Assembly (NCBI GenBank): GCA_963847625.1
Contig: CAWKAR010000038.1
Span: 1-64,000, forward strand
Reading direction: 5' to 3'
From: a candidate division FCPU426 bacterium
Lineage (GTDB): Bacteria > Oederibacteriota > Muellerivitia > Muellerivitales > Muellerivitaceae
DNA length: 64,000 nt
This document shows, one piece after another, positions 2,771 to 19,386 of this stretch (position 1 is the stretch's first letter; every line of letters starts with the position of its first letter). The notes beneath the pieces are model-generated. The model saw nothing but the letters and a program-made list of their open reading frames with translations, had not been told where the DNA came from and made no database searches. Made by a program: the position numbers and the translations under genes.

Positions 2771-4280
2771 GGGATGCGGAGGATGCAGTCTGACGACGAA
2801 CCAGTCGGCGAACTTTGTGGTGGGCCAAGCGGCGCTGACGTTGAACGCCACGTCACCGGTGAACGCGGGTTCATTGTACCGGCCGGAAGGGGTATTCCAG
2901 GCGGGGAACGACCTGATCGTGGCGGATTCGATGGCCAACCGGGTTTTGGTATACAGCCCGATTCCCAGCGTGATCCATCCAAGCGCGGTGCAGGTGATCG
3001 GGCAGTCGACGTTCACGGGAAGCGTGACGAACCAGGGTGTTTCGGTGAATTCGAATACCTTGTATTTGCCGTTGGGGATATGGAGCGACGGGACCATGCT
3101 GATCGTGGCGGACGAAGGGAACAACCGGGTATTGATTTACAGCAATATCGGTTCACTGGCGGTGACGAACGGATCGGCAGACGTGGTGATCGGGCAGGCG
3201 GACATGGTGAGCAGCAAGGCGAACCGCGGGGTGACGACGACGCCGGGAGCGAACACGCTATACGCGCCGGACGGGGTATTTTATGACGGGCAGAGACTGT
3301 TCATATCGGACATGGACAACAACCGGATATTGGTATACAACTCGCTGCCATCGGCGAATGGGGCGAGCGCGGATGAAGTGATCGGGCAGTCGAATTTCAC
3401 GAGCCAAACCGGGGATGGAGGGCTGACCAGCGCGACATCGCAAGGGCTGGTGACACCGAGGGGATTGTGGGTGGATAGCGGGAACCTATACGTGGCGGAC
3501 GCAGGGAACAACCGGATACTGATTTATAACAACGGAGGTAACGGGATAGACAGTCTGGCGGGGAACAACCCGCCGGCGGACGCGGTGGTGGGTCAAGTAA
3601 GCTACACCACGAGCGCAAAAGGATGTTCGGCGACTCAACTGAGCGGGCCCATGGGAGTATGCGGAGTGAATTGCCAGCTATATATCTCGGACACGGGAAA
3701 CGACAGGGTATTGATTTACAATCAAATTCCCACAGGGACGGCTAATCCGCCGGCGGTAGGGGTATTGGGACAGGCGAACATGATTACTAATACGTCGTCA
3801 ACGACCACGAAGGCCAATGATTTTATCAACCCATGGAATCTGCAAGCGGTGGGGGGGATGTTGTACGTGACGGATCTCAATGAAGACCGGTTGATGGCGT
3901 TCCAATGCGCGGCCGGGACAGGTGCGTCGTCAAATGTGAAAGAGGTGGTGATGAAGGAGACAACCCCGACTCCCCCGGTGACGGGGGCGATGTTGGGGAG
4001 TGTGGTGGCGGGGCCGAACATCTCCAGGGGCGGGGGGACGGTGGAAATCCGGTACAGCCTGGGGCAGGCGGCGAAAGTGACATTGAGGATTTACACGGTC
4101 ACAGGGGAGTTGGTGTACGAGAAGGGAGTGGAAGGGAACGCGGGTGCCAACAAGCTGGCGTGGGGAGTGAGGAACCAGGGGGGGGAGGCGGTAGCCAGCG
4201 GGCTCTATGTCTACGCGTTGCAGGCCGAGGGAGGAAATGGCATTGCCCGCAAGACGGGCAAGATCGTGGTGGCGCATTGA
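3..4280 (+). CDS. Giant surface protein (5'-truncated by window): >900 aa Thr/Pro/Asn/Ser mucin-like repeat, NHL beta-propeller, C-terminal FlgD-Ig/T9SS-type-A-like domain
   Basis: Frame open from base 3 ([10 protein letters not shown]...). Repeated LIVADxxNNRVLIY..ADxVIGQ blades. C-terminus VVAGPNISR...[13 protein letters not shown]...[20 protein letters not shown]...KIVVAH. Confidence 0.85.
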
Positions 4281-4513: not shown

Positions 4514-5800
4514 ATGAATAAAACTCTGGGAATGTTCTTCGCGACGATAGGTTTGCTCATGGTCCTGGGATGTGCTCCCCATTCGGGTGGGGATAAATCC
4601 GGAATTACTCTCACTTGTATTGGCTGGGGTGACATCGAGGAAGCCAAGATCATCCAAGCTGCGGTTAATGATTTCAAGATGGCCCATCCCGGCGTAGAAG
4701 TGAAATTGCAGAGGGCACCCTACGGCGAGTACATTACTAAGGTTCTAACCCAGTTCTCGGGCGGCTTGGCGCCAGACGTAATGGCGGTAAATGCCGAGCA
4801 GATGATCTCTTTCGCATCCAGGGGCGTGTTCCGGGATTTGAAACCCTACGTGGACAAAGACTCCTCCATCAAGCTCTCCGATTTTTATCCCGAAGCCATC
4901 GACCATTACACCTACAACGGCATCCTAACTGCCATCCCGAGGGACATCGCGCCCGTCGCGGTGATCTACTACAACAAGAAGAAATTCGACGAGGCTGGCC
5001 TGCCCTATCCCAAGGACGATTGGACTTACGAACAGTTCGCAACAACGGCGCAAAAATTGGTGAAAAAGGACGCCAAGGGACGGGTGACACAGTACGGTTT
5101 CCTGGACGACTACCCGACCTGGGACGCCTGGGTTTACGCCTTCGGAGGGAGTATGGTGGACAATGAGAAAAAGCCCGCCCGATGCACCCTGGACAGCGCC
5201 GCCGCCATAGCGGGGGTGCAGTTCCGCTCCGACCTCATCTACAAGTACGGTTGCACGCCCAGTCCCAGCGCTTCCACCGCCATGGGTGGCCTGGGCAATT
5301 CGGACCACTTCATCAACGGCTCGGTGGCTATGTTCCACAGCGGGATCTGGATGACCCCGCGGTTCCGCCAGATCAAGGATTTCGAATGGGACACGGTGGA
5401 GTTCCCGACGGGGCCCGGCGGTAACCGGGGTTTCCCGCTAAGCGCCGCTGGTTACGGCATCATCAAGACCTGCAAAAACCCCGATATGGCCTACGAGCTG
5501 GTGAAGTTTTTGGCCGGGGAAGTGGGACAAAAATACATGGCGGCTACGGGTTTGACCCAGCCGGCTATCAAGGCTGTCGCCCAGTCACCGGTCTTTCTGG
5601 ACGGGTTGGAGCCGAAATCAAAAGGATTCCTTGTGGACGCGGTAAAATACGGGCACTACCAACCGCTTGACCCCAACATTAACGAATGGAAAGCCCGGGT
5701 GGACTCTGCATTGGACCGGGTGTGGAACGAGGGCAAGCCGGCCCAGAAGGCGCTGGTCAAGGTTACAAAGGAAATCAACGCGAAGTTTTTCAAGAAATAA
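4514..5800 (+). CDS. Sugar ABC transporter substrate-binding lipoprotein (SBP_bac_1/8)
   Basis: ATG after GGAGGG. Lipobox VLGC. Motifs APDVM, IYYNKKKFDEAGL, FINGSVAMF. Confidence 0.9.
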   Translation: MNKTLGMFFATIGLLMVLGCAPHSGGDKSGITLTCIGWGDIEEAKIIQAAVNDFKMAHPGVEVKLQRAPYGEYITKVLTQFSGGLAPDVMAVNAEQMISFASRGVFRDLKPYVDKDSSIKLSDFYPEAIDHYTYNGILTAIPRDIAPVAVIYYNKKKFDEAGLPYPKDDWTYEQFATTAQKLVKKDAKGRVTQYGFLDDYPTWDAWVYAFGGSMVDNEKKPARCTLDSAAAIAGVQFRSDLIYKYGCTPSPSASTAMGGLGNSDHFINGSVAMFHSGIWMTPRFRQIKDFEWDTVEFPTGPGGNRGFPLSAAGYGIIKTCKNPDMAYELVKFLAGEVGQKYMAATGLTQPAIKAVAQSPVFLDGLEPKSKGFLVDAVKYGHYQPLDPNINEWKARVDSALDRVWNEGKPAQKALVKVTKEINAKFFKK

Positions 5801-5817: not shown

Positions 5818-6744
5818 TTAATAGCTGTTTTTCTTAATGAAACTTATGACTTCATCAAAGTCCGCACTCGCCAGGGCCACGCAGGTGTCCGCCGCGCCAT
5901 AGTAAACGTCCAGCTTGTTGGTTTTCTCATCCAGGATGCTCGCAGTCGGGAATACCACATTGGGCACAAATCCCACCCGCTCATAGTCTGCGGTGGGGGA
6001 CATCAGGTACCGCTTGGTGCGGTATTTCACTTTCCAGGGCTTATTCAAGTCGAGGATCGCCCCCCCCATGGAATACACGAACCCGTTACAGGTCGTATGA
6101 ACCCCGTGGTAAATCATGACCCACCCTTCCTTGGTTTCAATCGGAGTGGGGCCAGCCCCGACCTTGGTCATCTGCCATCCGCTGGTCCTGCCGAAAACGA
6201 ATTTGTGCCCGCCCCAATGAATCAGATCCGGACTGGTGGCAAAAAAAACATCGCCATAGGGCGTATGCCCATTGTCGGAAGGACGGTGGAGAAGGGCGTA
6301 TTGGCCGTTGATTTTCCTGGGGAAAAGAACCGCGTTGCGGTTGTAAGGCAAGAGTATGGTCGCCATCTGGGTGAAATTCTTGAAATCCCTTGTACGGGCT
6401 AATCCGATGGAAGGGCCGGAGGAAGGGTAATAGCACCAGGTGATGTAATAGGTTTCTCCGATCTTAGTGATGCGGGGGTCATAGCCCATTCCACAGGGGA
6501 TACTTTCCGGCACTTCGCCGGTCAGTTTCATCCGATTAGGCTGGATGTCCCAGTTGATGCCATCGCGGCTGAAGCCCACATGCAGTTCCATCAACATTTC
6601 CTGGGTGTCCACCCGGAACACACCCGCATAAGCGTCCTTGAACCGAACCACAGCGCTGTTCATGATGACGTTGGCGTTGGGGACCGCCTCCGACGTAATG
6701 ATGGGATTCTGGGAATAGCGTTGAAAAACTGTTTCGTTAGCCAC
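5818..6744 (-). CDS. GH130 beta-1,4-mannooligosaccharide phosphorylase (GH130_2-like)
   Basis: NSAVV, GYDPRI, LPYNRNAVLFPRKING, RPSDNGHTPYGDVF, GFVPNVVFP, YYGAADT. GTG start after AGGAGG. Confidence 0.9.
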   Translation of the reverse strand: MANETVFQRYSQNPIITSEAVPNANVIMNSAVVRFKDAYAGVFRVDTQEMLMELHVGFSRDGINWDIQPNRMKLTGEVPESIPCGMGYDPRITKIGETYYITWCYYPSSGPSIGLARTRDFKNFTQMATILLPYNRNAVLFPRKINGQYALLHRPSDNGHTPYGDVFFATSPDLIHWGGHKFVFGRTSGWQMTKVGAGPTPIETKEGWVMIYHGVHTTCNGFVYSMGGAILDLNKPWKVKYRTKRYLMSPTADYERVGFVPNVVFPTASILDEKTNKLDVYYGAADTCVALASADFDEVISFIKKNSY

Positions 6745-6862
6745 GAAAGTCCTCCTGAATTTGAAAGGTGAGTCTTCCCAACTCAAACAAAAATCACCGC
6801 GGTATTTTATTCATCATTCCAAACGGGCCATAACAAGTTCAAAGGGGTGGAACGAACCCCGA

Positions 6863-7609
6863 TTAGGCTTTTAGGCTTGTCCTAAAACATTTTAAGATTT
6901 CCAGGGTGTGCTCCGGGTTCCGTACCCGGATGCAATCCACCACCTGAAGGGCGGGGTAGTCGTTGCCGTCCGGATCCATCTTATCCCCGAAGAACAGGGC
7001 TTCGGAGGGTTTCAGCCCGTTGGCCTCAAGGAACCTGTGGATGCCCCAGGCCTTATCCACCCCCTTCGGCGTGATGTCGATGGAGGTTCTGCCACCGATC
7101 CGCATCGAGTATTTATCGCCCAAACAGGTTTTTAGGAAACCAAGCCAAACCCGTCTCTTGGAGCCGTCGGGGTCGTTGGTCCTCTTTTTCTCGTCAGGCG
7201 CGTTTCGTCCGATTGAAGAAAGGGTGATTTGAGAACCGCGGTCTTGAAGTTGATCCTCTTTGGTCGTCATGGAGCAAATGTCGTATTTGGCGATGAGGGA
7301 ATCGAAAGCATCCAGGATTTCTTTTCTTTCGGCAAAGGTGAACTCCAGCCGGTATTGCTCGTTGAACACGGCTTTTCCATCCCGGTAGTCCACCTTGACG
7401 TAATGGGTTCCGGAAACGGCCAAGAAGTGGTGGGGAACCGGCAAAAAGGGGGTGATCTGGGCGGATAAATGTTGGAAGCTGCTGCCGCTGATGAAGGCGA
7501 AGGAACACCCCCCCCGGATAATCCTTTCGATCTCGCTCGCCATGGCGGGCGAGATGGGTTTCGTACTGGGACAGATGGTGTCATCCACGTCGGCGATAAG
7601 GGTTAACAT
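6863..7609 (-). CDS. HAD-IIB hydrolase, phosphomannomutase (PMM/Sec53)-like
   Basis: DVDDT motif I, ISGS, DRGSQIT, GGRTSIDITPKGVDK, FFGDKMDPDGNDY. Confidence 0.75.
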   Translation of the reverse strand: MLTLIADVDDTICPSTKPISPAMASEIERIIRGGCSFAFISGSSFQHLSAQITPFLPVPHHFLAVSGTHYVKVDYRDGKAVFNEQYRLEFTFAERKEILDAFDSLIAKYDICSMTTKEDQLQDRGSQITLSSIGRNAPDEKKRTNDPDGSKRRVWLGFLKTCLGDKYSMRIGGRTSIDITPKGVDKAWGIHRFLEANGLKPSEALFFGDKMDPDGNDYPALQVVDCIRVRNPEHTLEILKCFRTSLKA

Positions 7610-7682: not shown

Positions 7683-7698
7683 GTTAAAACCTTTTAAC
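7683..7698. promoter_or_regulatory. Candidate LacI-family operator in the divergent HAD/lacI intergenic region
   Basis: Palindrome GTTAAAA-CC-TTTTAAC, similar to TAAAACGATTTA at 8990. Confidence 0.45.
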
Positions 7699-7848
7699 TG
7701 TCCCTGAGTCTAATATATATAGCCTGAAAAAAAGGGACGATTGTTTGAATTTTCCCATTTTTAAAAGATATTGGCAACCCAACTAAACCTGAGCGGCAAG
7801 GATGATGTTAAAATAACCCCCCGTTTTATTAAGTGTAAGCGAGGCCTC

Positions 7849-8874
7849 ATGGGTACCCATTCCACGATTAAAGACGTGGCCAAGAAAGCCGGAGTCTCCA
7901 TTACCACAGTCTCCTTTGTGTTGAACAACCGGCAGGACGTGGCCATCAGCGAGGAAGTCAAGAAACGGGTCCTGAAGGTGGCTCGGGAGATGGATTACCA
8001 CCCCAGCGCCATGGCGGCGGGATTGGCGGGAAAAAGAACCCGGAACCTGGGCGTCGTTTTTTTCCAGGAAGACAATATGATCTCCAACCCATTTTATTCC
8101 TTCATCGTCGAGGGAATCGTTCGGGAAACCATCGAAAAGGGGTTCAACCTTTTCTTTTCGTACCAGGAGTCGGCTTACGAAGGTTACCAAAGTTTTCCCA
8201 GGATCATCCGGGAAAAAAACGTGGACGGCGTTCTGTTAATCGGCCGGTGCGATCCCCACATGGTGGGGGATATCCAGGACCGGCGCATTCCGGTGGTGGC
8301 CATCGAGAATTTCCCTGCACTTAAGGATGTGGATACCATCCAGATTGAAAACAAGAGAGGAGGCATTCTCGCGGTGGATCACCTGATCCAATTTGGCCAT
8401 AAGAACATCGGCCTCCTGACGGTTGGGGATTTAAGGCCTAGCATTTCGGAAAGGGAGGAAGGCTGGCGGGCTTCCTACTTGAGGAACAATATTCCTCTGA
8501 ACGAAAAATATATTTTCAAAAGCTCAATGCTGACCTTCCGCGGCGGCTACGAGAGGACCAAGGAACTTCTGAGGGAAAACAAGAAAATCACCGGGCTTTT
8601 TTGCGTGAACGATGAAATGGCGGCGGGGGCCCTGAGAGCGGCCCGTGAAGTGGGAAGAAAGTTGCCGGAGGATTTGAGCGTGGTGGGCTTTGACAACATC
8701 ATCATGAGCAACTATACCGATCCGCCCCTGACTACCATCAGCGTGGCTAAGGAGTACTTGGGAAAACTGGCGGTCATCAGGCTTCTGGAAATAATGGAAA
8801 ACGAAAACCTTCCAGCCCTCCGGCAGGAAGTTCCGGTGGAATTGGTCGTGAGAAATTCCACAGCTGGAATCTGA
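7849..8874 (+). CDS. LacI-family transcriptional regulator
   Basis: TIKDVAKKAGVSITTVSFVLN HTH. LSVVGFDN..PPLTTI. ELVVRNST. Confidence 0.95.
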   Translation: MGTHSTIKDVAKKAGVSITTVSFVLNNRQDVAISEEVKKRVLKVAREMDYHPSAMAAGLAGKRTRNLGVVFFQEDNMISNPFYSFIVEGIVRETIEKGFNLFFSYQESAYEGYQSFPRIIREKNVDGVLLIGRCDPHMVGDIQDRRIPVVAIENFPALKDVDTIQIENKRGGILAVDHLIQFGHKNIGLLTVGDLRPSISEREEGWRASYLRNNIPLNEKYIFKSSMLTFRGGYERTKELLRENKKITGLFCVNDEMAAGALRAAREVGRKLPEDLSVVGFDNIIMSNYTDPPLTTISVAKEYLGKLAVIRLLEIMENENLPALRQEVPVELVVRNSTAGI

Positions 8875-8878
8875 GATG

Positions 8879-8892
8879 TAAAACCGGTTTTA
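8879..8892. promoter_or_regulatory. Candidate LacI-family operator
   Basis: Perfect palindrome TAAAACCGGTTTTA with central CG, upstream of the operon promoter. Confidence 0.5.
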
Positions 8893-8952: not shown

Positions 8953-9001
8953 TTGACAGGGAAAATATCGGGTGCTAATTTGCGCTAACTAAAACGATTT
9001 A
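8953..9001 (+). promoter_or_regulatory. Sigma70 promoter of the 9067-19386 operon with downstream operator candidate
   Basis: TTGACA (8953), 17-bp spacer, TGc-TAATTT (8976). TAAAACGATTTA at 8990-9001 lies near the inferred +1. Confidence 0.6.
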
Positions 9002-9066
9002 ATTGAAACCAGGTTTTAATCCGACACTCCCGTTAAATTAATTGAAGGCTTTTTAAGGAGGCTTTA

Positions 9067-9951
9067 ATGAAATATCTCAAATACGTGGTTTTAGTTCTCT
9101 TGGTCATATTTTTTTCCCCATTTTTCACTTTTTTAAACAGTGGTTGCAGTAAAAGCGCCACCCAGCCCCGTTGGGACGCGACTAATACTTTTACCAAAAC
9201 ACCAACCTTCACTATTACGTCCACAGCACCTCCTACTCAAACTCCAACGTACACGAATACGGCGACCATCACCAACACTCCGGGGAGTCCTACCTCAACG
9301 AATACCCCGACATCCACACCAACAGACACACCGACAACGAATCCAAGCTATACGGCCACTTACACCCCGACCGTCACGGAAACACCAACCGTCTCGAACA
9401 CCCCCACTTCCACCCCGACAATCAGTTCCCTTGACTTTACTTTTAGTTCGGCCGCCTCCATCACGGGGTGGTATTACAATGCCAGTGGTTCCGTGGGTGG
9501 AGGAGTCACCACTACCGCGGCTGTGGGTTTTGACGGAACCGCAAGTTGTCCTCCCAATTCTGGGGCGCTCGCGGTAACCATCGCGTTTACAGGAGTCAAT
9601 CAACAAGTGAACATCCAGTATGCCACTGGAAGCGTCATTAATTTGGCAGGGAAAGCTGTCAGCGCAGTAGTGAAAGTTCCTTCAGGTTTTAATACTAACA
9701 ATCCCCAGGGCGGCCACCTTTATGCGCAAAATGGTTCGCCTAATTGGCTTTTTTATAAAGACCCAACATATCAAAATTTAGGACCTGGCTGCGTCACCTT
9801 GACCATGAACGTTCCAGCCACCATTACTGCTGTCACTGGAGGTAATTTTGACCCATCACAGGTCGTTCTCATTGGATTGGAGCTGGACAGCAACGCTTCT
9901 GGGAGTACTACGCAGACAGTCGTAGATGTCTTCAATTGGCTTTCCCAATAA
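9067..9951 (+). CDS. Lipoprotein with Thr/Pro linker and C-terminal CBM-like beta-sandwich
   Basis: AGGAGG RBS. Hydrophobic leader ending LNSGC. ~80 aa T/P linker. DFTFSS..GW...INLAGK...[12 protein letters not shown]. Confidence 0.65.
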
Positions 9952-9967: not shown

Positions 9968-12900
9968 ATGAAACCATACCTTCTTATGAAAAGGGCGGCC
10001 GCTATCAGCGCCGCCTTTTTTATTGCTTCTACCTTGATGGGCGCTCCAGGCGGATCTTTTGTCTGGGAGGATTTCGAACTTGGCACCTGCTACTGGGGCA
10101 CCCAATTCGACGGGAGCCTCATGACCGATGGGATGATTTCCCCAGATTTCCCATCCCATGGCAAGAATGGTTTCCGGGGGCATTTTGTGATTCCCAAAGG
10201 CGGGGGTCGTACTGCTTTCTCCACCGCCCAAGCGGGCGATCTGAACGGAGCAAAAGATTTGTACATTGACCTCTACAACGCTTCACCCGTGACTTTTACC
10301 GCGCAGGTCATCGTCAAACAGGGCGTCCAATGGACCTGGTATAAAACCGATCAATTGACCATCAAGCCCGGGTGGAACAAGGACATGGATTTTAATATGG
10401 CCGGTTTGAAGGATGACTCGGGAAAACCCATGTCTGCCCCCCTGAACGAATTACACCTTGTGGCCCTTGTTTTCGAAACGAAAGACGCAGGCGAAGGGTT
10501 TTTATATATGGATTATGTCCGCCTTTCAGGGGCCAATCCCCAGAAGGTGGTGATGGTCCGGGCGGAGGAAATGGCCACCGGAAGCGCGGTGACCGTAACT
10601 GGATTTGAGGATGGAAGCAGTCCCCTTACCCCCGATTCCGGTTATTCAACTGCCATCGCGGCGGAAGCGGTGACGGTGGAGGGTGCGCCGGAAGGAACCC
10701 ATGTAGGCCTTCTTTCCTATGACAACAAACAACCGGACGACCACGCCGGCTACAACCTGCAAGCGGACATGGATTTATCCAAGGTCACAGGGGTGGTTTT
10801 TGACGCCTTTAACCCCCTCAAGGAACCGGTGGACACGGGAATTTACGTCAATACCGGCGCCAGCTGGACCTATTTCGAGTCTTCGACCCAATCCTTGAAA
10901 CCCGGCTGGAACCATAATGTCACATTCGCCTTGAAGGCTAAAACCTTCAAGAGCGAGGAATCCAAATGGACCAACACTGTCGGCGTCAAAGGAATTACTG
11001 TCACTCGGAAGATAGGACTTACTTTCTTTCCCCACCAGATCACCCGTTCTTATTTCATGGTGGATAACCTTCGTTTCCTCACTAACGACCCCCGTCCTGT
11101 CCAAAACATGGTTAACGATTTATTCCCAGCCACCCCCGCCATTACGGGAACCGACCACCTTTTTGAGGGCTTTGAGAAAGAGAAAACCGCTTGGGGGACC
11201 ATCACCGCCGGCAATTCCAAGGCCACCGGAGCCACCATCGTGGTGGATAACCGTTCCACCGAGGGCACTCACATGCTGGAGACTCATTTCGAATTTGACG
11301 CCAAGGACCAGCAAGCCTGGTTCGGTGTTGACCAGAGTATGAACCTAAAAGACTCCTCCGCTGTAAAAGTGGATATCTTCAACCCGGGAACGGAATCTCT
11401 CCAAGCCGCCATGGTCATGAAACTGGGCGATACCTACGATTGGAACGAGTCGAAAACCACGACCATCAAGCCAGGGTGGAACAAGGACGTCACTTTTCTC
11501 TTGAAGGCCAAAACTTTCAAGAACGCGGTCACGAACTGGCAAAACCACGCCTACGCCGAACCCCTGAACCAGGTGAAATGCCTCTATATCGGTTTTATCT
11601 CCAGCGGCCCAATGAAGGGTTCAGCCTACTTTGATAACATCCGCGTGACGGGCGCTTCCGCCGTGGCCGTCGGCGCGCCGGCCCCCAAGCACGAACTCAA
11701 GGGCCGGGTGGTCATGTGGGATCCCGTGCAAGTATTCGCGGCTGACGGATGGCAGGCCTCCACCAGCCCCGGAAGCAACTCCTTCGCCGTGGCCTCGGAA
11801 TATAAAAGGTTCGAGGGCGAGGACTCGGTGGTGATGAAATACAGGACCATCAGCGATTCCCAATCAGGCCAATTCGTTAAGACCCAACAAACCGATTGGA
11901 GCAACGTTCTGGGACTCCAATTCGATTTTTACAATCCCCAACCCTACTCTCTGACATTTACCATGGCCGTCCAAACAGGCCCCAACTGGGAATGGCAGGA
12001 AACCACTGAGATGACCCTGAAACCTGGTTGGAACCGGAAGGTCCAGGTGGACATCACCCAACCCATCTTCAAGTCTCTCGACACCAACTGGAGCGCGACT
12101 GACTTTTTGCGCACCCGGGATGACATCCGTACGGTCATCCTCAACGTTTTTCCCCACCATGCCGGAAGTGGTTCGCTCATCATGGCCAACTTGAGGACCA
12201 TCGAGCGGGACCTAATAGGTCCTGTTTCCTCCAACGACGTAGGGCAAGCCGTGGGTGTCATCTCGGATACCCAATTGACGTTCCGGACCTTGAAATACAC
12301 CTATTTCGAGAGTTTTGAGGGGGACATTTCTCAGTGGCAGCCTGTGGCAAACACGCTTATAACCAAATCCAGCGCTTACTCGACGGACGGGAACCATTCC
12401 CTGCGAATCGATTATCAGGGAGCTTTCGTTCCTAATGGAACGACTCCCGAGTTTTTTTACACGCCCCTTAAGGGAAAAAGCGTGTCCGTGGAGGGAACGA
12501 TTGATATGTCGTCCTTCAGTCATGTCCAATTCGACATTTACAATCCGGGTCCGCCGGTTCAAATGGACATGGCTTTCCGCACGGGCCCGGTTTCTTATGT
12601 GGGGTCGGGGGACAGCAACTCGAATGGGGAATGGATCGAATCCAGCTCTGTGACGGTCAATTCGGGATGGAATCGGAACCTGGACATTTCTCTCCTGGGA
12701 AACAATTTCAAGTCCGGCGCGACAGCATGGAAAATGTGGGATACTTTCCGCAATTCCAACCAGGTCCATGAAATTCACTTCAAAATCAGCAATACCTATG
12801 GCCGGGGGACTTTTTACCTCGACAACATCCGCTTCATTGGCGCGGGCATCCAACAGGCGGATGGCGTAACCGGCGAGGAAGTATCCTTCAAGCTCAATCC

Positions 12901-14218
12901 AAGCGACTCGGTTCAACTGGTGGCCGCCGGAAGCGCCATCGGTAATAGTGCCAGTCCAGCCCAGTTTAATCTAGATAAAGTACGTTTGGATATCCGGGGT
13001 GCGGGAGACCAGCTTTCCTTTTTTACCGGCGATCAAGTAATAGGCACCGATGATCCCATGACCATGGTATACGGGCCCCAAATCGGCAATCAAATTTTTG
13101 GTGTGGATGAGCGCTATAACCTCAAGGACATCGCCATGGTCCAGGCCTCCGGTTTTGCACAATATGGAGCCACTCCCAACAGCTTAGGAAATACCGCCGG
13201 ATACCTGGTTCGTGCGAAATCCACGGCTCTTTACGACTGCTATATTGGCGCGAGCTTGGTTGACGCCCGGTTTGGCAACACCATGGGTTCCAACCCCCTT
13301 ACTGCCAATGTTGAATCGGACGTAAAAACCTACGAGGCTGACGTGCAGGGGTACTTACGGGATATCCGTGTGGGCTTTCATGGGGAAGTGGCCCAAAGCG
13401 CATACGATGGTTATCCCGGCAGTCCATACCACCTCCAGAGTAATGGAAACAATAACGCCTATTACGCTGAACTGGATTATCAAATAGGAGCCTTCAAGAT
13501 CCAGGGAACCCGCCTGGAACACCAATTGTATTTCTTCAACCCCTTTTCTTCCGCAGCTTACCAGGGCTCGGACCAAAACAGCGCCCAATTCTACTGGCAA
13601 ATGGACACATTCTCCGTGGTTAAGGATATGCAGACCTGGGGCCGGTTCTGGAACGATTTCCTCACTGGGCTCAATTTTCTCGTGCAATATTATGATTATT
13701 CCTCGAAGAGTAACACCTACGCCAACCACGACATCAGGGCTATCCTCCAAAACAATACCTACCGGCCTCCCCTCTATATGAACTTCTGGTGGCACTGGTA
13801 CCAGGAAGGCCATAATATTGGCGACCCCAATGTGCCTAATCCTGCCATGGATGATAGTACCCTTATCACGACTTCCAATTACGAGCTCCACTACCAATTC
13901 AATCCCAAACTCGTCCTGACCGGCTTGTTTCGGGATTCCTTCACCGACTATTGGGAAGCCTTTACTTACGCGACCAACATGAAGTGGAAATTTTGGGGAA
14001 ATACTTGGCTTACGGGGGACTATAAACACATCGACCAGACGGGAAGCCGGTTCGGACAATTCAACAACTTCTCGGTTGGATTTACTAAGTATTTCCTGAA
14101 CAACGCCATCCAGGCCAACCTGACTTATGGGTCACCCAGCTTCATCGGGTATTGGGAGGATGACAACAACCTCCAAACTGTCGACGAGTGGATGGCTTCC
14201 CTAACCGGAAAATTCTGA
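9968..14218 (+). CDS. Secreted protein with five tandem CBM-like repeats and a predicted C-terminal outer-membrane beta-barrel
   Basis: Signal peptide. Five (K/N)(P/S)GWN-centred repeats of ~180-210 aa. Last ~450 aa show aromatic-rich alternating strands and a terminal Phe (LTGKF). Confidence 0.7.
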   Translation: MKPYLLMKRAAAISAAFFIASTLMGAPGGSFVWEDFELGTCYWGTQFDGSLMTDGMISPDFPSHGKNGFRGHFVIPKGGGRTAFSTAQAGDLNGAKDLYIDLYNASPVTFTAQVIVKQGVQWTWYKTDQLTIKPGWNKDMDFNMAGLKDDSGKPMSAPLNELHLVALVFETKDAGEGFLYMDYVRLSGANPQKVVMVRAEEMATGSAVTVTGFEDGSSPLTPDSGYSTAIAAEAVTVEGAPEGTHVGLLSYDNKQPDDHAGYNLQADMDLSKVTGVVFDAFNPLKEPVDTGIYVNTGASWTYFESSTQSLKPGWNHNVTFALKAKTFKSEESKWTNTVGVKGITVTRKIGLTFFPHQITRSYFMVDNLRFLTNDPRPVQNMVNDLFPATPAITGTDHLFEGFEKEKTAWGTITAGNSKATGATIVVDNRSTEGTHMLETHFEFDAKDQQAWFGVDQSMNLKDSSAVKVDIFNPGTESLQAAMVMKLGDTYDWNESKTTTIKPGWNKDVTFLLKAKTFKNAVTNWQNHAYAEPLNQVKCLYIGFISSGPMKGSAYFDNIRVTGASAVAVGAPAPKHELKGRVVMWDPVQVFAADGWQASTSPGSNSFAVASEYKRFEGEDSVVMKYRTISDSQSGQFVKTQQTDWSNVLGLQFDFYNPQPYSLTFTMAVQTGPNWEWQETTEMTLKPGWNRKVQVDITQPIFKSLDTNWSATDFLRTRDDIRTVILNVFPHHAGSGSLIMANLRTIERDLIGPVSSNDVGQAVGVISDTQLTFRTLKYTYFESFEGDISQWQPVANTLITKSSAYSTDGNHSLRIDYQGAFVPNGTTPEFFYTPLKGKSVSVEGTIDMSSFSHVQFDIYNPGPPVQMDMAFRTGPVSYVGSGDSNSNGEWIESSSVTVNSGWNRNLDISLLGNNFKSGATAWKMWDTFRNSNQVHEIHFKISNTYGRGTFYLDNIRFIGAGIQQADGVTGEEVSFKLNPSDSVQLVAAGSAIGNSASPAQFNLDKVRLDIRGAGDQLSFFTGDQVIGTDDPMTMVYGPQIGNQIFGVDERYNLKDIAMVQASGFAQYGATPNSLGNTAGYLVRAKSTALYDCYIGASLVDARFGNTMGSNPLTANVESDVKTYEADVQGYLRDIRVGFHGEVAQSAYDGYPGSPYHLQSNGNNNAYYAELDYQIGAFKIQGTRLEHQLYFFNPFSSAAYQGSDQNSAQFYWQMDTFSVVKDMQTWGRFWNDFLTGLNFLVQYYDYSSKSNTYANHDIRAILQNNTYRPPLYMNFWWHWYQEGHNIGDPNVPNPAMDDSTLITTSNYELHYQFNPKLVLTGLFRDSFTDYWEAFTYATNMKWKFWGNTWLTGDYKHIDQTGSRFGQFNNFSVGFTKYFLNNAIQANLTYGSPSFIGYWEDDNNLQTVDEWMASLTGKF

Positions 14219-14231
14219 GGAGTTTTCGTAT

Positions 14232-16610
14232 ATGCACCGACGAACCAGAAAAATCTCTTTCCAGAGTCTCCTGACTCCCATTACTGGAATCCTAGGAGTT
14301 TTTTTGCTGGCGGCCCACTTCGGTGTTTGGGCCGCGCATGTTAAAAAAGCTCCGGTTTCAGAATTAGAAGTACAAGGTCTTTTATTCCGGGAAGGCGGGC
14401 AACCTTTTTTCCTGGACGGCGTGGAAGCCCCGGGCCTTTATCGGTTGACCCAAGACCAACTGGCGGCATTTTTTCAAAAGGTCAAAACGGCAGGTGGTAA
14501 GGTTGTGAAGACCAACGCATTTTCCACTGGCCAGACCCAGGATGCCCTTCAGACCGGCGCGGACCAATGGGACGAGAAATCCTTAGCCAAACTTGATCAG
14601 ATGACCACCGAAGCGAAAAAGGCGGGAGTGAAGCTCGTGCTCAGCCTTTGTTCGGCTAACGGAAACGAGGGAGGAACCGACGCCTATGCTTCCTGGGTTG
14701 GAAGCCCCAATCCGGGGGTTTTCTATATCAATTACCAATGCAAGGATTGGTACCGTCATTATGTGAAGATGTTATTGAGTCGAGTCAATACGATCACGGG
14801 GACAAGCTACAAGTCAGATCCCACTATTCTGGCCTGGGACCTGATGGATTCTCCCAGCAATCCGAATGGCGAACCGGAAGCCATTAACCAGTGGGTGGCC
14901 GAAATGGCTTCTTACTTGAAGACCCTTTCCCCCCAAGCCCTTGTATGTTTGACCTTAGACCCCAATGCTCTCGGCCTAAATATGAATACAGCGGCAGGCC
15001 AAGCCGGCGTGGAGTTTGTTTTTGAACGCATTTTTCCAAACGCTTCTTCGCCTCAGAAATGGGCATTGAGGCTTGGAAAACCCGTTGTAGCTCTATTAGA
15101 GAAACCCCAAGCCCAATCTCAGGAGTTGGGAGCTGGGGTATTGGTTGCCCAGGGAATTTCCGGGCTAGATCAATGGAAAGGAATTACCTCATTGTTCACT
15201 AATCTCACCCAAGAAGGTGGATTCGGCGCCAAGGACCTTTTTGAATCCGTATCCGCGGTTCCAGAAAGCGCTCCAGCTTTATGTTGGGAAGCCAAGGGTA
15301 ATATTAAGGTTGTTCTTACCGAGCCGGCAAAAGTGGTTGTCCGTTACGGAACAGGAGGAGTGTTGGACCATGAAACAACACCTTCCCTTGAGGCGGCCGT
15401 CCTTCAACATATCTCCCTGGAAAATTTATTAACTGGAAAGGAATATTCGTTTCAAGTGAAGGCCATACGAGATAAAGACACCCAGTACTCCAACATCTCG
15501 ACCTTTTCCACGCCAAAGGTTAAAGCATTGACCGTCTCCGCCTCCAAAATGTCCAAGAATTTCATCATGGTGGAAGGGGATCATTTTTACGTCGGGAAAA
15601 AGATATTCCGGTTTGTAGGAACCAACAACTATCAACTACATATCGCGGAGCCTGACAAGCTGGAATATGTGATGAATTGGGCTGAAAAGCTAGGTTTTCA
15701 GGTCATGCGCACTTGGGCGTTCGGGGAATCCAAAAAACCTGAAAAAGACTGGGCCGATTGGGAAAAACGGCGTTATTTCGTCACTGCCCCTGGCCAATTC
15801 AGGGAAGAAGCGTTCAAGGATTTGGATTCCGTGGTTGTTTCGGCGGCAAAACATAATATCCGGCTTGTACTTGCCCTGGCAAACAATTGGGGGGATTACG
15901 GGGGCGCTCCTGAGTGGGTTAAATTCTTCGGATCTACTGAAAAAAATGACTTTTTTGACAAGAAAGAAATAAAGGAAGCCTTCAAGGCATATATAAAAGC
16001 CATGGTCACCCACGTCAACACCCTGACCGGGGTAGCCTACAAGGACGACCCCACCATCATGGCCTGGGACCTCATGAATGAACCCCGCTACGAAAGGGAC
16101 ACCACCGGCAAGACATTAGTCGCTTGGATCGATGAAATGTCATCCTACTTAAAAAGTCTTGGGATCAAGCAATTGGTCACTACCGGTTCAGAGGGTTTTA
16201 AAGCGGAAAATGGAACCCATTATTCTGGAGTCAACTTTATCCTGGACCATCAACCCAAATCCATCGACTATGCTGTCTTCCACGTTTATCCGACAGGAGA
16301 TTATTCCATGTGGAACTTGGAGACCACCGAAGCAGTCCTCACCTCCTATGTGAAGGACGCGCATGAAGTTTTGAAGAAGCCGGTGGTTTTAGAGGAATTT
16401 GGAATTGACAAGGGCAAGCCCGGCTATGACCGTCCGTCTTTTATCTATAACATGATGAAAATATTCTACGACGCGGGTGGGGATGGCACTCAATATTGGA
16501 TGCTGGCGGAACCTACTTACAACGGGGACGGGAACCAGATTGATCCAACCATGACGGACATCTGCAACACCTTTGTCATCGAATCCAACGAATTGCGGGG
16601 AGGAAAATAA
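14232..16610 (+). CDS. GH5 (GH5_7-like) endo-beta-mannanase: degenerate GH5 domain + Fn3-like domain + intact GH5 domain
   Basis: C-terminal domain FVGTNNY, RTWAF, NNWGDYGG, AWDLMNEP, FHVYP, VLEEFG. N-terminal copy has WDLMDSP. Confidence 0.85.
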   Translation: MHRRTRKISFQSLLTPITGILGVFLLAAHFGVWAAHVKKAPVSELEVQGLLFREGGQPFFLDGVEAPGLYRLTQDQLAAFFQKVKTAGGKVVKTNAFSTGQTQDALQTGADQWDEKSLAKLDQMTTEAKKAGVKLVLSLCSANGNEGGTDAYASWVGSPNPGVFYINYQCKDWYRHYVKMLLSRVNTITGTSYKSDPTILAWDLMDSPSNPNGEPEAINQWVAEMASYLKTLSPQALVCLTLDPNALGLNMNTAAGQAGVEFVFERIFPNASSPQKWALRLGKPVVALLEKPQAQSQELGAGVLVAQGISGLDQWKGITSLFTNLTQEGGFGAKDLFESVSAVPESAPALCWEAKGNIKVVLTEPAKVVVRYGTGGVLDHETTPSLEAAVLQHISLENLLTGKEYSFQVKAIRDKDTQYSNISTFSTPKVKALTVSASKMSKNFIMVEGDHFYVGKKIFRFVGTNNYQLHIAEPDKLEYVMNWAEKLGFQVMRTWAFGESKKPEKDWADWEKRRYFVTAPGQFREEAFKDLDSVVVSAAKHNIRLVLALANNWGDYGGAPEWVKFFGSTEKNDFFDKKEIKEAFKAYIKAMVTHVNTLTGVAYKDDPTIMAWDLMNEPRYERDTTGKTLVAWIDEMSSYLKSLGIKQLVTTGSEGFKAENGTHYSGVNFILDHQPKSIDYAVFHVYPTGDYSMWNLETTEAVLTSYVKDAHEVLKKPVVLEEFGIDKGKPGYDRPSFIYNMMKIFYDAGGDGTQYWMLAEPTYNGDGNQIDPTMTDICNTFVIESNELRGGK

Positions 16611-16611
16611 G

Positions 16612-17322
16612 ATGAGAAAAATTTTATTCTGGCTGGCAATTGTTCCTGGAATGTATGCATTCATTTTATCTTTGTCCGGATGCGGCAAGGTGAGTGGGCC
16701 CATTAGTCCATTAGTTAATCCGACGACTATTTTGTTCAATTTTGATAATGGAACCGCGGATGGCTGGCAATATGATAGCTGTAATCCGTCAACTTTTAAT
16801 GGACTGCCCGTAACTGCTACTTTCGCGGGGCTGCCCGTAACCGTTGTGCCTACTCCAAGTGCGACTAATCAAATTGCCTTCCAAGGAACGGGGGCTCTTT
16901 ATTTGCCTATTCCGGAATTCGGACAAGTCCAAGTGGTCAAAAGCGGTCCGATCACGGAAACAGATTACGTATCTCTAACCTCTTATTCGGTTCATTATCA
17001 ATTTGCATCCGCTGTCGATATGACCAATAAAATCTTTTCCATGTGGGTGTACTGGAAATCAGGTGTAGTTACGCCTCCTAACCAGATCGGGGCACAAATA
17101 TTTATTAAGGATTCTTCTTGGCAATATGCGAACGGCACCTTTTTCAATCTTACGCAAAATCAATGGACCCAAGTGACCTATAATGTCAAAGCTCCTAATT
17201 ATCAAGCCAATCCGCCGCCAGACTTAACCAAAATTATGCAAGTGGGACTTCAGATAGCCGGTTCTGGAAGTGCGGTATTCACCTCTGATGGCGAGGTGGA
17301 TGCTGACAGCTTTGGTTATTGA
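16612..17322 (+). CDS. CBM-like lipoprotein
   Basis: Lipobox LSGC. FNFDNGTADGW, AQIFIKDSSWQY, DLTKIMQVGLQI. Resembles the 9067 C-terminal domain. Confidence 0.65.
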   Translation: MRKILFWLAIVPGMYAFILSLSGCGKVSGPISPLVNPTTILFNFDNGTADGWQYDSCNPSTFNGLPVTATFAGLPVTVVPTPSATNQIAFQGTGALYLPIPEFGQVQVVKSGPITETDYVSLTSYSVHYQFASAVDMTNKIFSMWVYWKSGVVTPPNQIGAQIFIKDSSWQYANGTFFNLTQNQWTQVTYNVKAPNYQANPPPDLTKIMQVGLQIAGSGSAVFTSDGEVDADSFGY

Positions 17323-17412: not shown

Positions 17413-19386
17413 ATGCGAAAAACCACCTTGTTTATTTTTATCTTATTACAGGCTTTCGCCATGACTGCCCTAGCAATGCCTAAACTCCAATTACCTTCCC
17501 TCATCAGTGATCACATGGTCCTGCAACAGGGTATGCCGGCTCCCATTTGGGGCAAGGACAAACCGGGCCAGACCATTATCGTTTCCATCGCAGACCAGAC
17601 AGCATCCAGCAAAGCCGGAAACGACGGCAAGTGGAAAGCGGTATTACCGGTTCTTACCGCCGGCGGGCCTTATGAATTGGTAGTTTCAGGCTCTGAATCC
17701 GTCACGGTTAAGGATGTCTTGGTGGGGGAAGTGTGGGTGGCTTCAGGCCAATCCAATATGGAATTGCCCTTGAATAACACTCTGAACGCCAAAAAAGATG
17801 TACCTGCGGCTCATCAGAGCCAAATCCGATGGTTTGTGCAGGAACGTGCCTTGTCAGAAAAACCTCTCGAAGAGCCCAAGGGAACTTGGAAGGTTTGCAC
17901 GCCAGAGACCGCGAAAGATTTCTCGGCGGCGGCTTATTATTTCGCCAAGAAAATCCACCAAGCGCTCAATGTGCCCGTGGGCATCCTCGGAACCTACTGG
18001 GGAGGTACTTGGATCGAATCCTGGATACCCCGGGAGACTTTCAAGACCAATAAGAGTATCCAAGCCATTCTCGACCGATGGGATTCTCTTTCCTCTTCGG
18101 TAAAAAAAGAACGGGGCGGCTTGCAGGACATGGAATTGGAAATTTGTAATTTGCGTTTCATTCCGAAGGATGACGCCCAGGAACCCTTGACCGTCCTTTT
18201 GGAGAAGGATGCTTCAAAGGCATCGGGGAAAACCTTGGGAGGAACCTGGACCTCCAACGCGCAACCGGGATCTACCATTACATTCATATCAAAATCGAGT
18301 GGTGGACCGAAGCCGGGACCCGTGGGAATGCTTCGGGCCTCTGTCCAGGCAGGGGGTTGGGCTAATTCCAATACTGAATTTGCTTCCGGCAACCGCCTGG
18401 TAGACTTAAGCGCCTATAGCGGGTTCGAATTCATGGCCAAAGGGAAGGGTTCCTTCACGGTTCTTCTTTCCCAGCCCATCGTCACCGATTGGGACAATTA
18501 CGGCACTGAACCCTTCGAGGCGACCCAGTCCTGGAAAACATACAAATATTCATTCTCGCAAATGAAACAAAGCGGCTGGGGTTTGCCCAAACCCTTCCGA
18601 TCCTCGGCCCTCCAGGCTGTTTTTCTTAACGTAGCGGTGCATCCCATGTCCGCCGTGCCCACGGGCCTGTTTAATGGCATGGTCAATCCCTTGATTCCCT
18701 ACGGAATCAAGGGCGCTCTCTGGTATCAGGGAGAGACCAATGTGGGCCAGGCGGAAGAATACCACCGGCTTCTTCCCGCCTTCATCCAGGGATGGAGAAA
18801 GGCCTGGGGGGAAGGAGATTTTACCTTCGTTTGCGCCCAATTGCCGAACTTCAAGGACCCGAACGAGAAACCCGGGAACGGTTGGCCCGAATTGAGAGAA
18901 GCCCAACTCGAAGCATTGAAGGAACCCAATACGGGTATGGCTGTACTCATTGATGTGGGAGAGGCCAACGACATCCATCCTAAGGATAAAAATGACGTGG
19001 GAAAAAGAATGGCCCTGCAGGCTTTGCACTTGGCTTATGGAAAACCGGGTAGTTATTCTGGCCCTTTGTACGATTCCATGAGAGTGGAAGGCCAGAAGAT
19101 CCGGCTGAAATTTAAAAACGCTGATGGGGGATTAAGGGCCAAAGGGAAGGGTCCGCTTAAAGGATTTGTTTTGGCTGGCGCGGATGGAAAATTTATGGAA
19201 GCCCGGGCAAAAATCGAGGATGCAACCGTCATCGTTTGGAACGCGAAAATCAAATTCCCTCAAGCCGTTCGTTACGCCTGGGCCGATGACCCGGTTTGCA
19301 ACCTTTATGGAAAAAGCGGGCTTCCTGCGTCCCCTTTTCGCACGGATAACCCTTATTTAGTCAATAAGGGAAAAGGTAAAAAGTAA
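17413..19386 (+). CDS. Sialate O-acetylesterase-family (SASA) carbohydrate esterase with inserted CBM11/CIA30-like domain
   Basis: GEVWVASGQSNM, WYQGETN, DIHPKDK, VRYAWAD. Insert contains VDLSAYSGFEFMAKGKG...FSQMKQSGWG. Confidence 0.85.
   Translation: MRKTTLFIFILLQAFAMTALAMPKLQLPSLISDHMVLQQGMPAPIWGKDKPGQTIIVSIADQTASSKAGNDGKWKAVLPVLTAGGPYELVVSGSESVTVKDVLVGEVWVASGQSNMELPLNNTLNAKKDVPAAHQSQIRWFVQERALSEKPLEEPKGTWKVCTPETAKDFSAAAYYFAKKIHQALNVPVGILGTYWGGTWIESWIPRETFKTNKSIQAILDRWDSLSSSVKKERGGLQDMELEICNLRFIPKDDAQEPLTVLLEKDASKASGKTLGGTWTSNAQPGSTITFISKSSGGPKPGPVGMLRASVQAGGWANSNTEFASGNRLVDLSAYSGFEFMAKGKGSFTVLLSQPIVTDWDNYGTEPFEATQSWKTYKYSFSQMKQSGWGLPKPFRSSALQAVFLNVAVHPMSAVPTGLFNGMVNPLIPYGIKGALWYQGETNVGQAEEYHRLLPAFIQGWRKAWGEGDFTFVCAQLPNFKDPNEKPGNGWPELREAQLEALKEPNTGMAVLIDVGEANDIHPKDKNDVGKRMALQALHLAYGKPGSYSGPLYDSMRVEGQKIRLKFKNADGGLRAKGKGPLKGFVLAGADGKFMEARAKIEDATVIVWNAKIKFPQAVRYAWADDPVCNLYGKSGLPASPFRTDNPYLVNKGKGKK

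What the first reader, a model, noticed from the sequence alone, without database searches (positions are those of the whole stretch)
9968..14218. Five tandem CBM-like modules fused to a predicted outer-membrane beta-barrel: candidate one-protein glycan capture/import device
Seen: a signal peptide, then five homologous units (FE..W...D.YNP...G..W.W.E...(K/N)(P/S)GWN...(Y/F).DN(I/L)R). The GWN motifs sit near 10364, 10898, 11468, 12020 and 12659. The last ~450 aa (about 12860-14218) have alternating, aromatic-rich strands and a terminal Phe. Known: FE...DN(I/L)R bracketing is typical of Ca-binding jelly-roll CBMs (CBM11/23/27-like), and a terminal Phe is the BAM insertion signal. Inference: a porin carrying its own mannan-binding array that replaces SusC/SusD. 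I see no TonB plug, and I do not recognise this architecture as a described family.
Basis: partly seen in the sequence, partly recalled or inferred. Interest (0 to 1): 0.85.

Follow-up and report, generated by a model that had tools for sequence, protein, structure and literature searches.

The report
Sugar-binding-module-corked outer-membrane channel
An uncultured bacterium encodes a large outer-membrane channel protein that, in structure models, carries one sugar-binding module outside the cell and is corked from inside by a second one; its gene sits beside a mannan-cutting enzyme gene, so it looks like an undescribed way of importing plant polysaccharide.

Summary
The 1416-aa protein has five homologous jelly-roll modules (PF21253; closest solved relatives CBM59-like, CBM27, CBM11) and an outer-membrane barrel ending in Phe (33 of 33 homologues).

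Models give a 24-strand barrel whose first strand lies between modules 4 and 5. Module 5 is therefore inserted in loop 1, outside; modules 1-4 are periplasmic. Module 4 docks into the periplasmic side of the lumen as a cork (complex score 0.84, best control 0.23). So there is a plug, but it has a CBM fold, not the TonB-receptor plug fold, and I found no TonB box.

The family is single-copy in 28 of 99 genomes of the phylum. In 27 of the 28 it co-occurs with a dead-GH5/active-GH5 mannanase (adjacent in 26); none of the 71 barrel-negative genomes has that enzyme. A LacI-type operator links it to GH130 and phosphomannomutase genes.

Best reading: a CBM-gated beta-mannan importer doing the job of SusC/SusD by unrelated means (about 0.65 for import, 0.5 for the TonB-independent version). 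Binding, transport and gating are untested. No family or paper describing this architecture was found.

The parts
9968..14218 (+). CBM-corked 24-strand outer-membrane barrel protein, 1416 aa
9968..10042 (+). Sec-type signal peptide (judged by eye; no predictor run)
10055..10537 (+). CBM unit 1, inferred periplasmic; absent in minimal homologues
10586..11089 (+). CBM unit 2, inferred periplasmic; absent in minimal homologues
11153..11659 (+). CBM unit 3, extra copy found only in the five-unit clade, closest to unit 2; PF21253 E 6e-9
11708..12211 (+). CBM unit 4 = predicted cork in the periplasmic side of the lumen; W676 and W708 at the interface; calcium-site Asp lost
12212..12295 (+). Short amphipathic segment and barrel strand 1 (aa about 762-776)
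12296..12847 (+). CBM unit 5, inserted in loop 1 between strands 1 and 2, inferred cell-surface; best fold match CBM11
12848..14215 (+). Barrel strands 2-24, ending in Phe
13028..13093 (+). Loop 3 (GTDDP), conserved Asp pair, folds in and touches the cork
14129..14188 (+). Loop 12 (YG...GYWEDD), conserved Tyr/Trp/Asp, folds in and touches the cork
8953..8981 (+). Sigma-70-type promoter: TTGACA, 17 nt, extended -10; same layout in 6 of 6 family loci inspected
8990..9002 (+). LacI-type operator-like motif just after the promoter
7685..7697 (+). Second operator-like motif, ahead of the divergent PMM-GH130 genes and lacI
9067..9951 (+). Lipoprotein with Thr/Pro stalk and CBM-like head (first gene of the operon)
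14232..16610 (+). Dead GH5 - Fn3 - active GH5 endo-beta-1,4-mannanase; signal peptide, no lipobox, no C-terminal secretion tag
16612..17322 (+). CBM-like lipoprotein following the GH5 in 24 of 24 loci whose contig reaches that far
17413..19386 (+). SASA-family acetylesterase with CIA30/CBM-like insert (present in some five-unit loci only)
7771..8874 (+). LacI-family regulator
6863..7609 (-). HAD phosphomannomutase-like protein
5818..6786 (-). GH130 manno-oligosaccharide phosphorylase
4517..5800 (+). Sugar ABC solute-binding lipoprotein (no permease gene beside it)

Best explanation
A single-chain, CBM-gated importer of beta-mannan (gluco/galactomannan) oligomers across the outer membrane, driven by binding and hydrolysis rather than TonB. 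Steps: (1) BAM inserts a 24-strand barrel [modelled]. (2) Module 5 on loop 1, helped by two CBM lipoproteins, captures chains at the surface [position modelled; binding inferred]. (3) The chain passes the in-folded acidic/aromatic loops 3 and 12 and meets the Trp face of module 4, which corks the lumen from the periplasm [contact modelled; binding inferred]. (4) The cork shifts, and modules 1-3 plus the periplasmic dead-GH5/active-GH5 enzyme hold and cut the chain, making uptake one-way [inferred]. (5) Products go by the solute-binding protein to GH130 and PMM, under a LacI repressor [gene content and operator shown; flux inferred]. Import of any kind about 0.65; this TonB-independent version about 0.5.
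For: Barrel: the barrel-only model matches only outer-membrane barrels in its top rows. Adding unit 4, the linker and unit 5 raises pLDDT 76.9 to 85.4 and pTM 0.69 to 0.82 and gives 24 strands. The 24-strand ushers then align from model residue 183-186 to 839 at rmsd 3.7-4.2 A over 365-378 residues in the best rows. Cork: unit 4 as a separate chain scores 0.84 against a best control of 0.23; that mark was reached by 116 of 157 solved complexes and 2 of 215 mismatched pairs; runs agree in at least 88% of contacts; partner pLDDT at least 85. Contacts run round the whole rim and include loops 3 and 12. Minimal homologues keep only cork, strand 1, surface module and barrel. Glycan: the unit profile hits mannanase CBMs 1wky and 1pmh first; W595 and W676 align with CBM27 Trp23 and Trp113, two of three platform residues named in PMC10167667. 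The same unit occurs free in barrel-less GH113 loci. Linkage: double GH5 in 27 of 28 barrel genomes and 0 of 71 others; canonical GH130 in 9 of 10 versus 1 of 21 genomes of the own family; shared operator. No SusD, LamB or OprB found in this 93.9% complete genome. The lineage TonB-box motif is in 5 of 6 own receptors and 0 of 33 family members.
Against: All structural evidence is prediction, and I saw no coordinates, only secondary structure, aligned ranges and contact lists. The docked parts are neighbours in one chain, my own alignment was used, and units 1, 2, 3 and 5 were not tried as partners (close cousins can pass). The interface is not more conserved than the rest (0.46 v 0.51 on unit 4; 0.49 v 0.45 on the barrel). 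About 180 contacts is a tight cork with no known energy source to move it. The third CBM27 platform Trp is not matched. The four-unit clade has only weak partial GH130 matches (E 1e-8 or weaker). The minimal homologue in G041 lies near GH18/CBM30 genes with no double GH5, so mannan is not the substrate of the whole family. Genomes are kin, so the co-occurrence counts are not independent. The sides of the GH5 and the lipoproteins are inferred.
Confidence: 0.5

Rival explanations
1. Same importer, but energised by TonB-ExbBD pulling on an unrecognised box, that is, a convergent TonB-dependent transporter with a CBM as plug.
For: The N-terminal plug ahead of strand 1 has the TBDT layout; TBDT alignments begin in unit 4 on their plug residues. 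The genome has 2 TonB and 6 receptors. A tight cork needs force. A loose box look-alike lies at the first strand of unit 2 in 5 of 33 members.
Against: The lineage box motif is in 0 of 33 members and nothing like it is in the 45 aa before the cork. Minimal homologues start the cork about 5 residues after the signal peptide. No tonB or exbBD gene among the neighbours scanned.
Confidence: 0.15
2. A permanently sealed scaffold (Wzi-like): it displays one CBM outside for adhesion to mannan and parks periplasmic CBMs and the GH5 underneath, without transport.
For: About 180 cork-barrel contacts plus two in-folded loops; no energy coupling seen. Wzi, titled a carbohydrate-binding barrel, is among the fold hits (Z 12.3), though tied with many porins.
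Against: A 24-strand barrel is far larger than an anchor needs. Acidic and aromatic loop residues are conserved at 20% identity. A mannanase without secretion tag needs substrate in the periplasm.
Confidence: 0.14
3. A dedicated protein translocon (usher- or Slam-like) that moves the double GH5 and the CBM lipoproteins to the surface; the modules act as protein-docking domains.
For: The best whole-barrel matches are the 24-strand ushers FimD/PapC. The barrel is paired one-to-one with a GH5 that lacks the C-terminal tag of the genome's other secreted proteins.
Against: 6-8% identity to ushers; the cork is an N-terminal CBM, not an internal usher plug. The modules keep glycan-stacking Trp positions. 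The G041 homologue has no GH5 partner.
Confidence: 0.1
4. An export pore for a self-made beta-mannan-like polymer (AlgE/BcsC-like), with the GH5 and esterase as periplasmic editing enzymes.
For: Barrel plus periplasmic hydrolase plus esterase resembles synthase-dependent systems (recalled); AlgE is among the fold hits (Z 13.1).
Against: No polymer synthase among the neighbours scanned in the GH5-linked loci. They hold GH130, GH36, GH2, a sugar isomerase domain, PMM, SBP and LacI, which are catabolic.
Confidence: 0.05
5. One reading: an open porin with all five modules on one side as a capture array.
For: Linear order of repeats, then barrel.
Against: It leaves 23 strands, and odd counts in bacterial barrels are mostly miscounts (10.64898/2026.03.07.710327). 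The linker is an amphipathic strand in 30 homologues and completes the barrel. Unit 4 fills the lumen.
Confidence: 0.04

Closest known systems
TonB-dependent glycan transporter SusC with SusD (e.g. BT1763/BT1762, PDB 5t3r)
   Same: Large plugged barrel with the plug N-terminal to strand 1; surface glycan-binding part; linked GH and surface-type lipoproteins; regulated locus. This is what it most likely works like.
   Different: 24 not 22 strands; the plug is a CBM jelly-roll, not PF07715; the surface binder is a CBM inside loop 1 of the same chain, not a TPR lipoprotein; extra periplasmic CBMs; no TonB box found; 4-9% identity in structural alignments.
Fimbrial ushers FimD and PapC (PDB 9fy9, 7lhh, 3ohn, 2vqi)
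   Same: 24-strand barrel; best whole-barrel superposition (Z 12-14.6, rmsd 3.7-5.8 A, about 370 residues); plugged by a beta-sandwich; periplasmic domains.
   Different: The usher plug is an insertion within the barrel (recalled) and the cargo is pilin. Here the cork is N-terminal, a second module sits in loop 1, no chaperone or pilin genes were seen nearby, and identity is 6-8%.
CBM59-like domain of Bacillus mannanase (PF21253, PDB 1wky), CBM27 (1pmh, 1of3) and CBM11 (1v0a)
   Same: Jelly-roll fold (unit 4 to 1wky Z 15.4, rmsd 2.2 A; unit 5 to 1v0a Z 15.2, rmsd 2.7 A); FE...DN bracket in units 1-3 and 5; two of three CBM27 platform Trp positions.
   Different: Built into a membrane barrel rather than appended to an enzyme; 13-21% identity; an extra conserved hairpin Trp (W708); unit 4 lacks the calcium-site Asp.
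Cytophaga hutchinsonii chu_1276-chu_1280 atypical PUL (PMC12016534)
   Same: Non-canonical glycan locus: predicted barrel, CBM-like outer-membrane protein and endo-hydrolase, no SusD.
   Different: Separate proteins; CHU_1276 is reported as TBDT-like; cellulose. Homology to this family was not tested.
Sugar porins LamB, ScrY, OprB, chitoporin
   Same: Energy-independent sugar entry followed by a periplasmic binding protein and ABC transport.
   Different: 16-18 strands with loop constriction (recalled), no globular plug and no CBMs; no Pfam match here.

Membership tests
Outer-membrane beta-barrel (BAM substrate) | Even number of amphipathic antiparallel strands with short periplasmic turns | tested here: met
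   24 strands in the model; alternation in most strands, weak (below 0.4) in 4 of 23; usher superposition over residues 184-839. Prediction only.
Outer-membrane beta-barrel (BAM substrate) | C-terminal Phe; host has BamA | tested here: met
   33 of 33 end in Phe; Omp85 E 1e-53 in the genome.
TonB-dependent transporter (SusC) | 22-strand barrel | tested here: not met
   24 strands; TBDTs superpose worse (rmsd 5.6-6.4 A) than ushers (about 4 A).
TonB-dependent transporter (SusC) | N-terminal plug of the PF07715 fold | tested here: not met
   No PF07715 match; the plug position is held by a domain matching CBM folds at Z 15.
TonB-dependent transporter (SusC) | TonB box ahead of the plug | tested here: inconclusive
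   A recalled generic pattern missed all 6 own receptors, so that test was void. The lineage motif read from 5 of 6 receptors is in 0 of 33 members. A divergent box cannot be excluded.
TonB-dependent transporter (SusC) | Adjacent susD | tested here: not met
   The adjacent genes are a lipoprotein and a GH5; PF07980 not found in the genome, 93.9% complete.
Fimbrial usher | 24-strand barrel | tested here: met
Fimbrial usher | Usher sequence family, internal plug, chaperone and pilin partners | tested here: not met
   No usher Pfam or NCBIfam match in 21 barrel sequences or the full protein; the cork is N-terminal; none among the neighbours scanned.
PF21253 / CBM59-like module | Profile match above the curated cut-off | tested here: met
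   62.1 bits v cut-off 27; 35 of 61 units match at E 0.05 or better.
PF21253 / CBM59-like module | Binds glycan | not testable with these tools
   Only Trp correspondence and gene context.
CBM27 | Trp23/Trp60/Trp113 platform | tested here: inconclusive
   Two of three positions align in a weak profile alignment (E 4.5e-4); Trp60 is not matched.
Sugar porins LamB/OprB | Family profile; unplugged barrel of 16-18 strands | tested here: not met
   No match; 24 strands and a cork.
DUF6029 (PF19494) | Profile match | tested here: not met
   Language-model look-alike at 0.92, but 0 of 21 barrel sequences match it in Pfam.
GH5 endo-beta-1,4-mannanase (partner gene) | Two catalytic Glu | tested here: met
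   C-terminal domain: NEP and EE(F/Y)G in 19 of 19; best PDB match 3pz9, E 5e-60. The N-terminal copy lacks the nucleophile in 19 of 19 and the acid/base Glu in 18 of 19.

The most novel reading that the evidence does not exclude
A third route for polysaccharide import in diderm bacteria, beside TonB-dependent SusC/D and open sugar porins: a 24-strand barrel in which one CBM is the ligand-sensing gate, a second is the surface receptor, and further periplasmic CBMs with a dead/active hydrolase form a ratchet that pulls chains in without proton-motive force.
Probability: 0.4. Interest if true: 0.93.

Novelty: categorically new. Interest (0 to 1): 0.85.

Why it matters
The known routes for glycans across the outer membrane are TonB-dependent transporters and small porins (PMC13543919, passages read). 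A barrel corked by a CBM, with another CBM spliced into its first loop, would be a new transporter architecture and an independent solution to the SusC/SusD problem. It would also suggest how a polysaccharide-degrading rare-biosphere lineage (probably Goldbacteria/FCPU426) takes up hemicellulose with no SusD found. It is directly testable: the 850-aa minimal homologues and the single modules are small enough to express, and removing the cork predicts a very wide open pore. Even if it does not transport, the topology itself was not found in any database searched.

Tried and rejected
No sequence match for the protein or the barrel in PDB, Pfam (barrel: 0 meaningful hits in 21 sequences) or NCBIfam. 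No fold hit combined a barrel with a CBM cork; that absence does not prove a new fold. The top Foldseek rows to SprA have TM 0.16-0.20 and rmsd 37 A and were disregarded. Stand-alone barrels: the 249-861 aa search gave 3 proteins, taken as fragments from short contigs or partial records; that search scored only 8000 candidates. The representatives search gave 17 proteins, all full fusions or short pieces. ESM Atlas look-alikes of 490-520 aa (0.92-0.94; below 0.8 with the modules) are unconfirmed leads. A split form was sought in loci with free modules: the neighbours in L093 and L097 are GH113, not barrels. Generic TonB-box patterns failed on the positive controls. The promoter scan did not list the 8953 promoter, whose -10 matches only 3 of 6, and found no excess over shuffles; the promoter rests on conservation. 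No RNA holder was listed. Earlier findings by sequence, words and relatives: none. Paper searches for this architecture found nothing describing it; the library lacks most subscription journals, and I opened no supplements, where gene tables of PMC7031533 might list the protein. The tree of units is the quick tree only.


Full report
Observation. The ORF at 9968-14218 encodes 1416 aa. Five units at aa 30-190, 207-374, 396-564, 581-748 and 777-960 are mutually homologous (all 10 pairs E 1e-7 or better). The protein matches Pfam PF21253, the galactose-binding-like domain of bacterial mannanases, at 62 bits against a cut-off of 27. The last 456 aa match nothing in Pfam, NCBIfam or PDB by sequence.

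Family. A barrel profile finds one copy in 28 of 99 genomes of the phylum (the single sequence found 26). Among 30 full-length homologues examined, 13 have five units and 17 have four. Units group by position rather than by genome in a quick tree, and unit 3 is an extra copy closest to unit 2. Three divergent homologues have only two matching units before and within the barrel; two of them (850 and 855 aa) consist of signal peptide, unit, linker, unit and barrel. All 33 end in Phe. Only 17 representatives were found among 1.84 billion proteins, so the family is narrow. One relative's record title names Candidatus Goldiibacteriota, while others are titled Spirochaetia, proteobacterium or bacterium. 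PMC7031533 (passages and section 7 read) links Goldbacteria with FCPU426 and describes many CBMs and GH5s; its main text has no occurrence of porin, outer membrane, barrel or mannan. The host lineage is therefore probable, not shown.

The barrel starts earlier than it seems. The C-terminal part alone models as 23 strands (pLDDT 76.9, pTM 0.69), and its top fold matches are outer-membrane barrels, with poor fits (rmsd 6.7-14.4 A). An odd count is suspect (10.64898/2026.03.07.710327, passages). The linker between the last two units differs from the other linkers and shows alternating hydrophobicity in 30 homologues. With unit 4, the linker and unit 5 included, confidence rises to pLDDT 85.4 and pTM 0.82. 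The linker becomes a long strand running into unit 5, and the last strand of unit 5 runs into the next barrel strand, giving 24 strands. The 24-strand ushers FimD and PapC now align from model residue 183-186 through 839, at rmsd 3.7-4.2 A over 365-378 residues in the best rows and up to 5.8 A in others, at 6-8% identity. Unit 5 is thus an insertion in loop 1. If the terminal Phe and the short turns face the periplasm, as is the established rule, unit 5 is outside and units 1-4 are inside.

There is a plug. Alignments to TonB receptors and VDAC begin at model residue 20-24, inside unit 4, on their plug or pore helix. Folded as a separate chain, unit 4 docks on the barrel with score 0.84 against a best control of 0.23. 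That mark was reached by 116 of 157 solved complexes and 2 of 215 mismatched pairs; the runs agree in at least 88% of about 180 contacts; partner pLDDT is at least 85. Contacts cover the start of strand 1, the short turns and rim residues all round, the terminal Phe, and two in-folded loops (GTDDP, GYW). None involve unit 5. W676, E678, K702 and W708 of unit 4, each conserved in at least 85% of 30 sequences, lie in the interface. Limits: this is the model's own confidence, the parts are chain neighbours, other units were not tried, I saw no coordinates, and the interface as a whole is no more conserved than the rest. The contact list suggests a cork in the periplasmic part of the lumen rather than a plug filling it.

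The modules look like mannan binders. A profile of 61 units hits the CBM of Bacillus mannanase (1wky, E 4.5e-6), then CBM27-1 (1pmh) and CBM11. By fold, unit 4 matches 1wky at Z 15.4 and unit 5 matches CBM11 at Z 15.2. The positions of W595 and W676 align with Trp23 and Trp113 of CBM27-1, two of the three mannan-stacking residues named in PMC10167667 (one passage read). They are aromatic in 26-29 of 30 and 22-30 of 30 copies of units 1, 2, 4 and 5. Closely related free-standing modules occur in barrel-less loci with GH113 and GH5 genes, one also with GH130 (L093, L097). Binding is not shown.

Context. A protein of dead GH5, Fn3 and active GH5 is present (E below 1e-40) in 27 of the 28 barrel genomes and in 0 of the 71 others. 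It is the next gene in 26; in one genome a contig end intervenes. The profile was built from these same loci, so the informative part is the absence elsewhere. Its second domain keeps both catalytic Glu in 19 of 19 and is closest to solved GH5 endo-mannanases (E 5e-60); the first lacks the nucleophile in 19 of 19 and the acid/base in 18 of 19. It has a signal peptide, no lipobox, and none of the C-terminal tag that ends about 45 other long proteins of this genome, so I infer it is periplasmic. A CBM-like lipoprotein follows in 24 of 24 loci that extend far enough. The window adds GH130, PMM, LacI, a solute-binding protein and an esterase; relatives add GH36, GH2 mannosidase-like and isomerase genes. 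Within the own family, canonical GH130 is in 9 of 10 barrel-positive and 1 of 21 barrel-negative genomes. A promoter and operator-like motif precede the operon in 6 of 6 family loci inspected. The motif recurs before PMM-GH130 here and before GH36 in L030; it has 12 hits in the genome against 0-2 in three shuffles, two of them near a secreted GH5 and a CBM/esterase gene. It was not found in the loci of the four-unit clade, nor in L033, L035 or L076.

Against a simple mannan story: the four-unit clade has no strong GH130 match, and the minimal homologue of G041 lies near GH18/CBM30 genes with no double GH5. Kin are not independent, so I attach no statistics to the counts.

Mechanism. The most economical reading is an importer. 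Surface unit 5 captures the chain, conserved loops guide it to the Trp face of the cork, the cork yields, and periplasmic modules plus the dead/active GH5 trap and cut it. Topology and cork are modelled; linkage and operator are shown; binding, opening and direction are inferred. The energy source is the weak point. The genome has BamA, two TonB and six receptors, with no SusD, LamB or OprB found. The TonB-box motif of 5 of those 6 receptors is in 0 of 33 family members, and the minimal forms leave almost no room for one.

Comparison and novelty. It works most like SusC/SusD (definition from PMC13543919, passages) but fails membership on strand number, plug fold and partner. It shares barrel size with ushers but not plug position, sequence or partners. 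The atypical C. hutchinsonii locus (PMC12016534, passages) is an analogue made of separate proteins. Paper searches found no description of a CBM-plugged barrel. Two earlier AI notes on this genome describe a separate OmpM-like porin trio with CBM lipoproteins; my barrel profiles match no other ORF in the genome, so that is a different family. Verdict: a real, conserved and apparently undescribed architecture, more unusual than first thought, with a plausible but untested function. Interest 0.85.

Noticed in passing
window 14232-16610: Tandem GH5 in which the N-terminal copy lost its catalytic nucleophile in 19 of 19 homologues yet is kept across clades about 25% identical: a candidate glycan-binding or docking pseudo-enzyme.
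   Followed up: partly
L093:7995-14364 and L097:8001-16371: Sets of free-standing, secreted 190-aa copies of the same module in GH113/GH5 loci (L093 also GH130) with no barrel in the fetched DNA.
   Followed up: partly
L071:3054-5738 (G041); P0048, P0049: Minimal two-module form of the family, near GH18/CBM30 genes: possibly another substrate, and the best construct for structure work.
   Followed up: partly
G000 C32:16812-21492 and C39:64227-68898, C39:188121-190568: Neighbouring 760-820 aa ORFs ending in Phe, probably the OmpM-like porins of the earlier notes; no match to this barrel.
   Followed up: partly
window 117-4280 and about 45 ORFs genome-wide: Long secreted proteins share a C-terminal tag resembling the type IX sorting domain (weak Pfam hits), outside Bacteroidota; the one here has a very long Thr/Pro-rich repeat.
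   Followed up: no
window 4517-5800: Sugar solute-binding protein without adjacent permease genes; permease-family genes lie on other contigs.
   Followed up: partly
window 8878-8891: Perfect 14-bp palindrome right after the lacI stop, resembling the operator; possibly an auxiliary site.
   Followed up: no
L038:11961-14361 and L076:184-2579: The double-GH5 gene is in two frames in two genomes (frameshift or assembly error).
   Followed up: no
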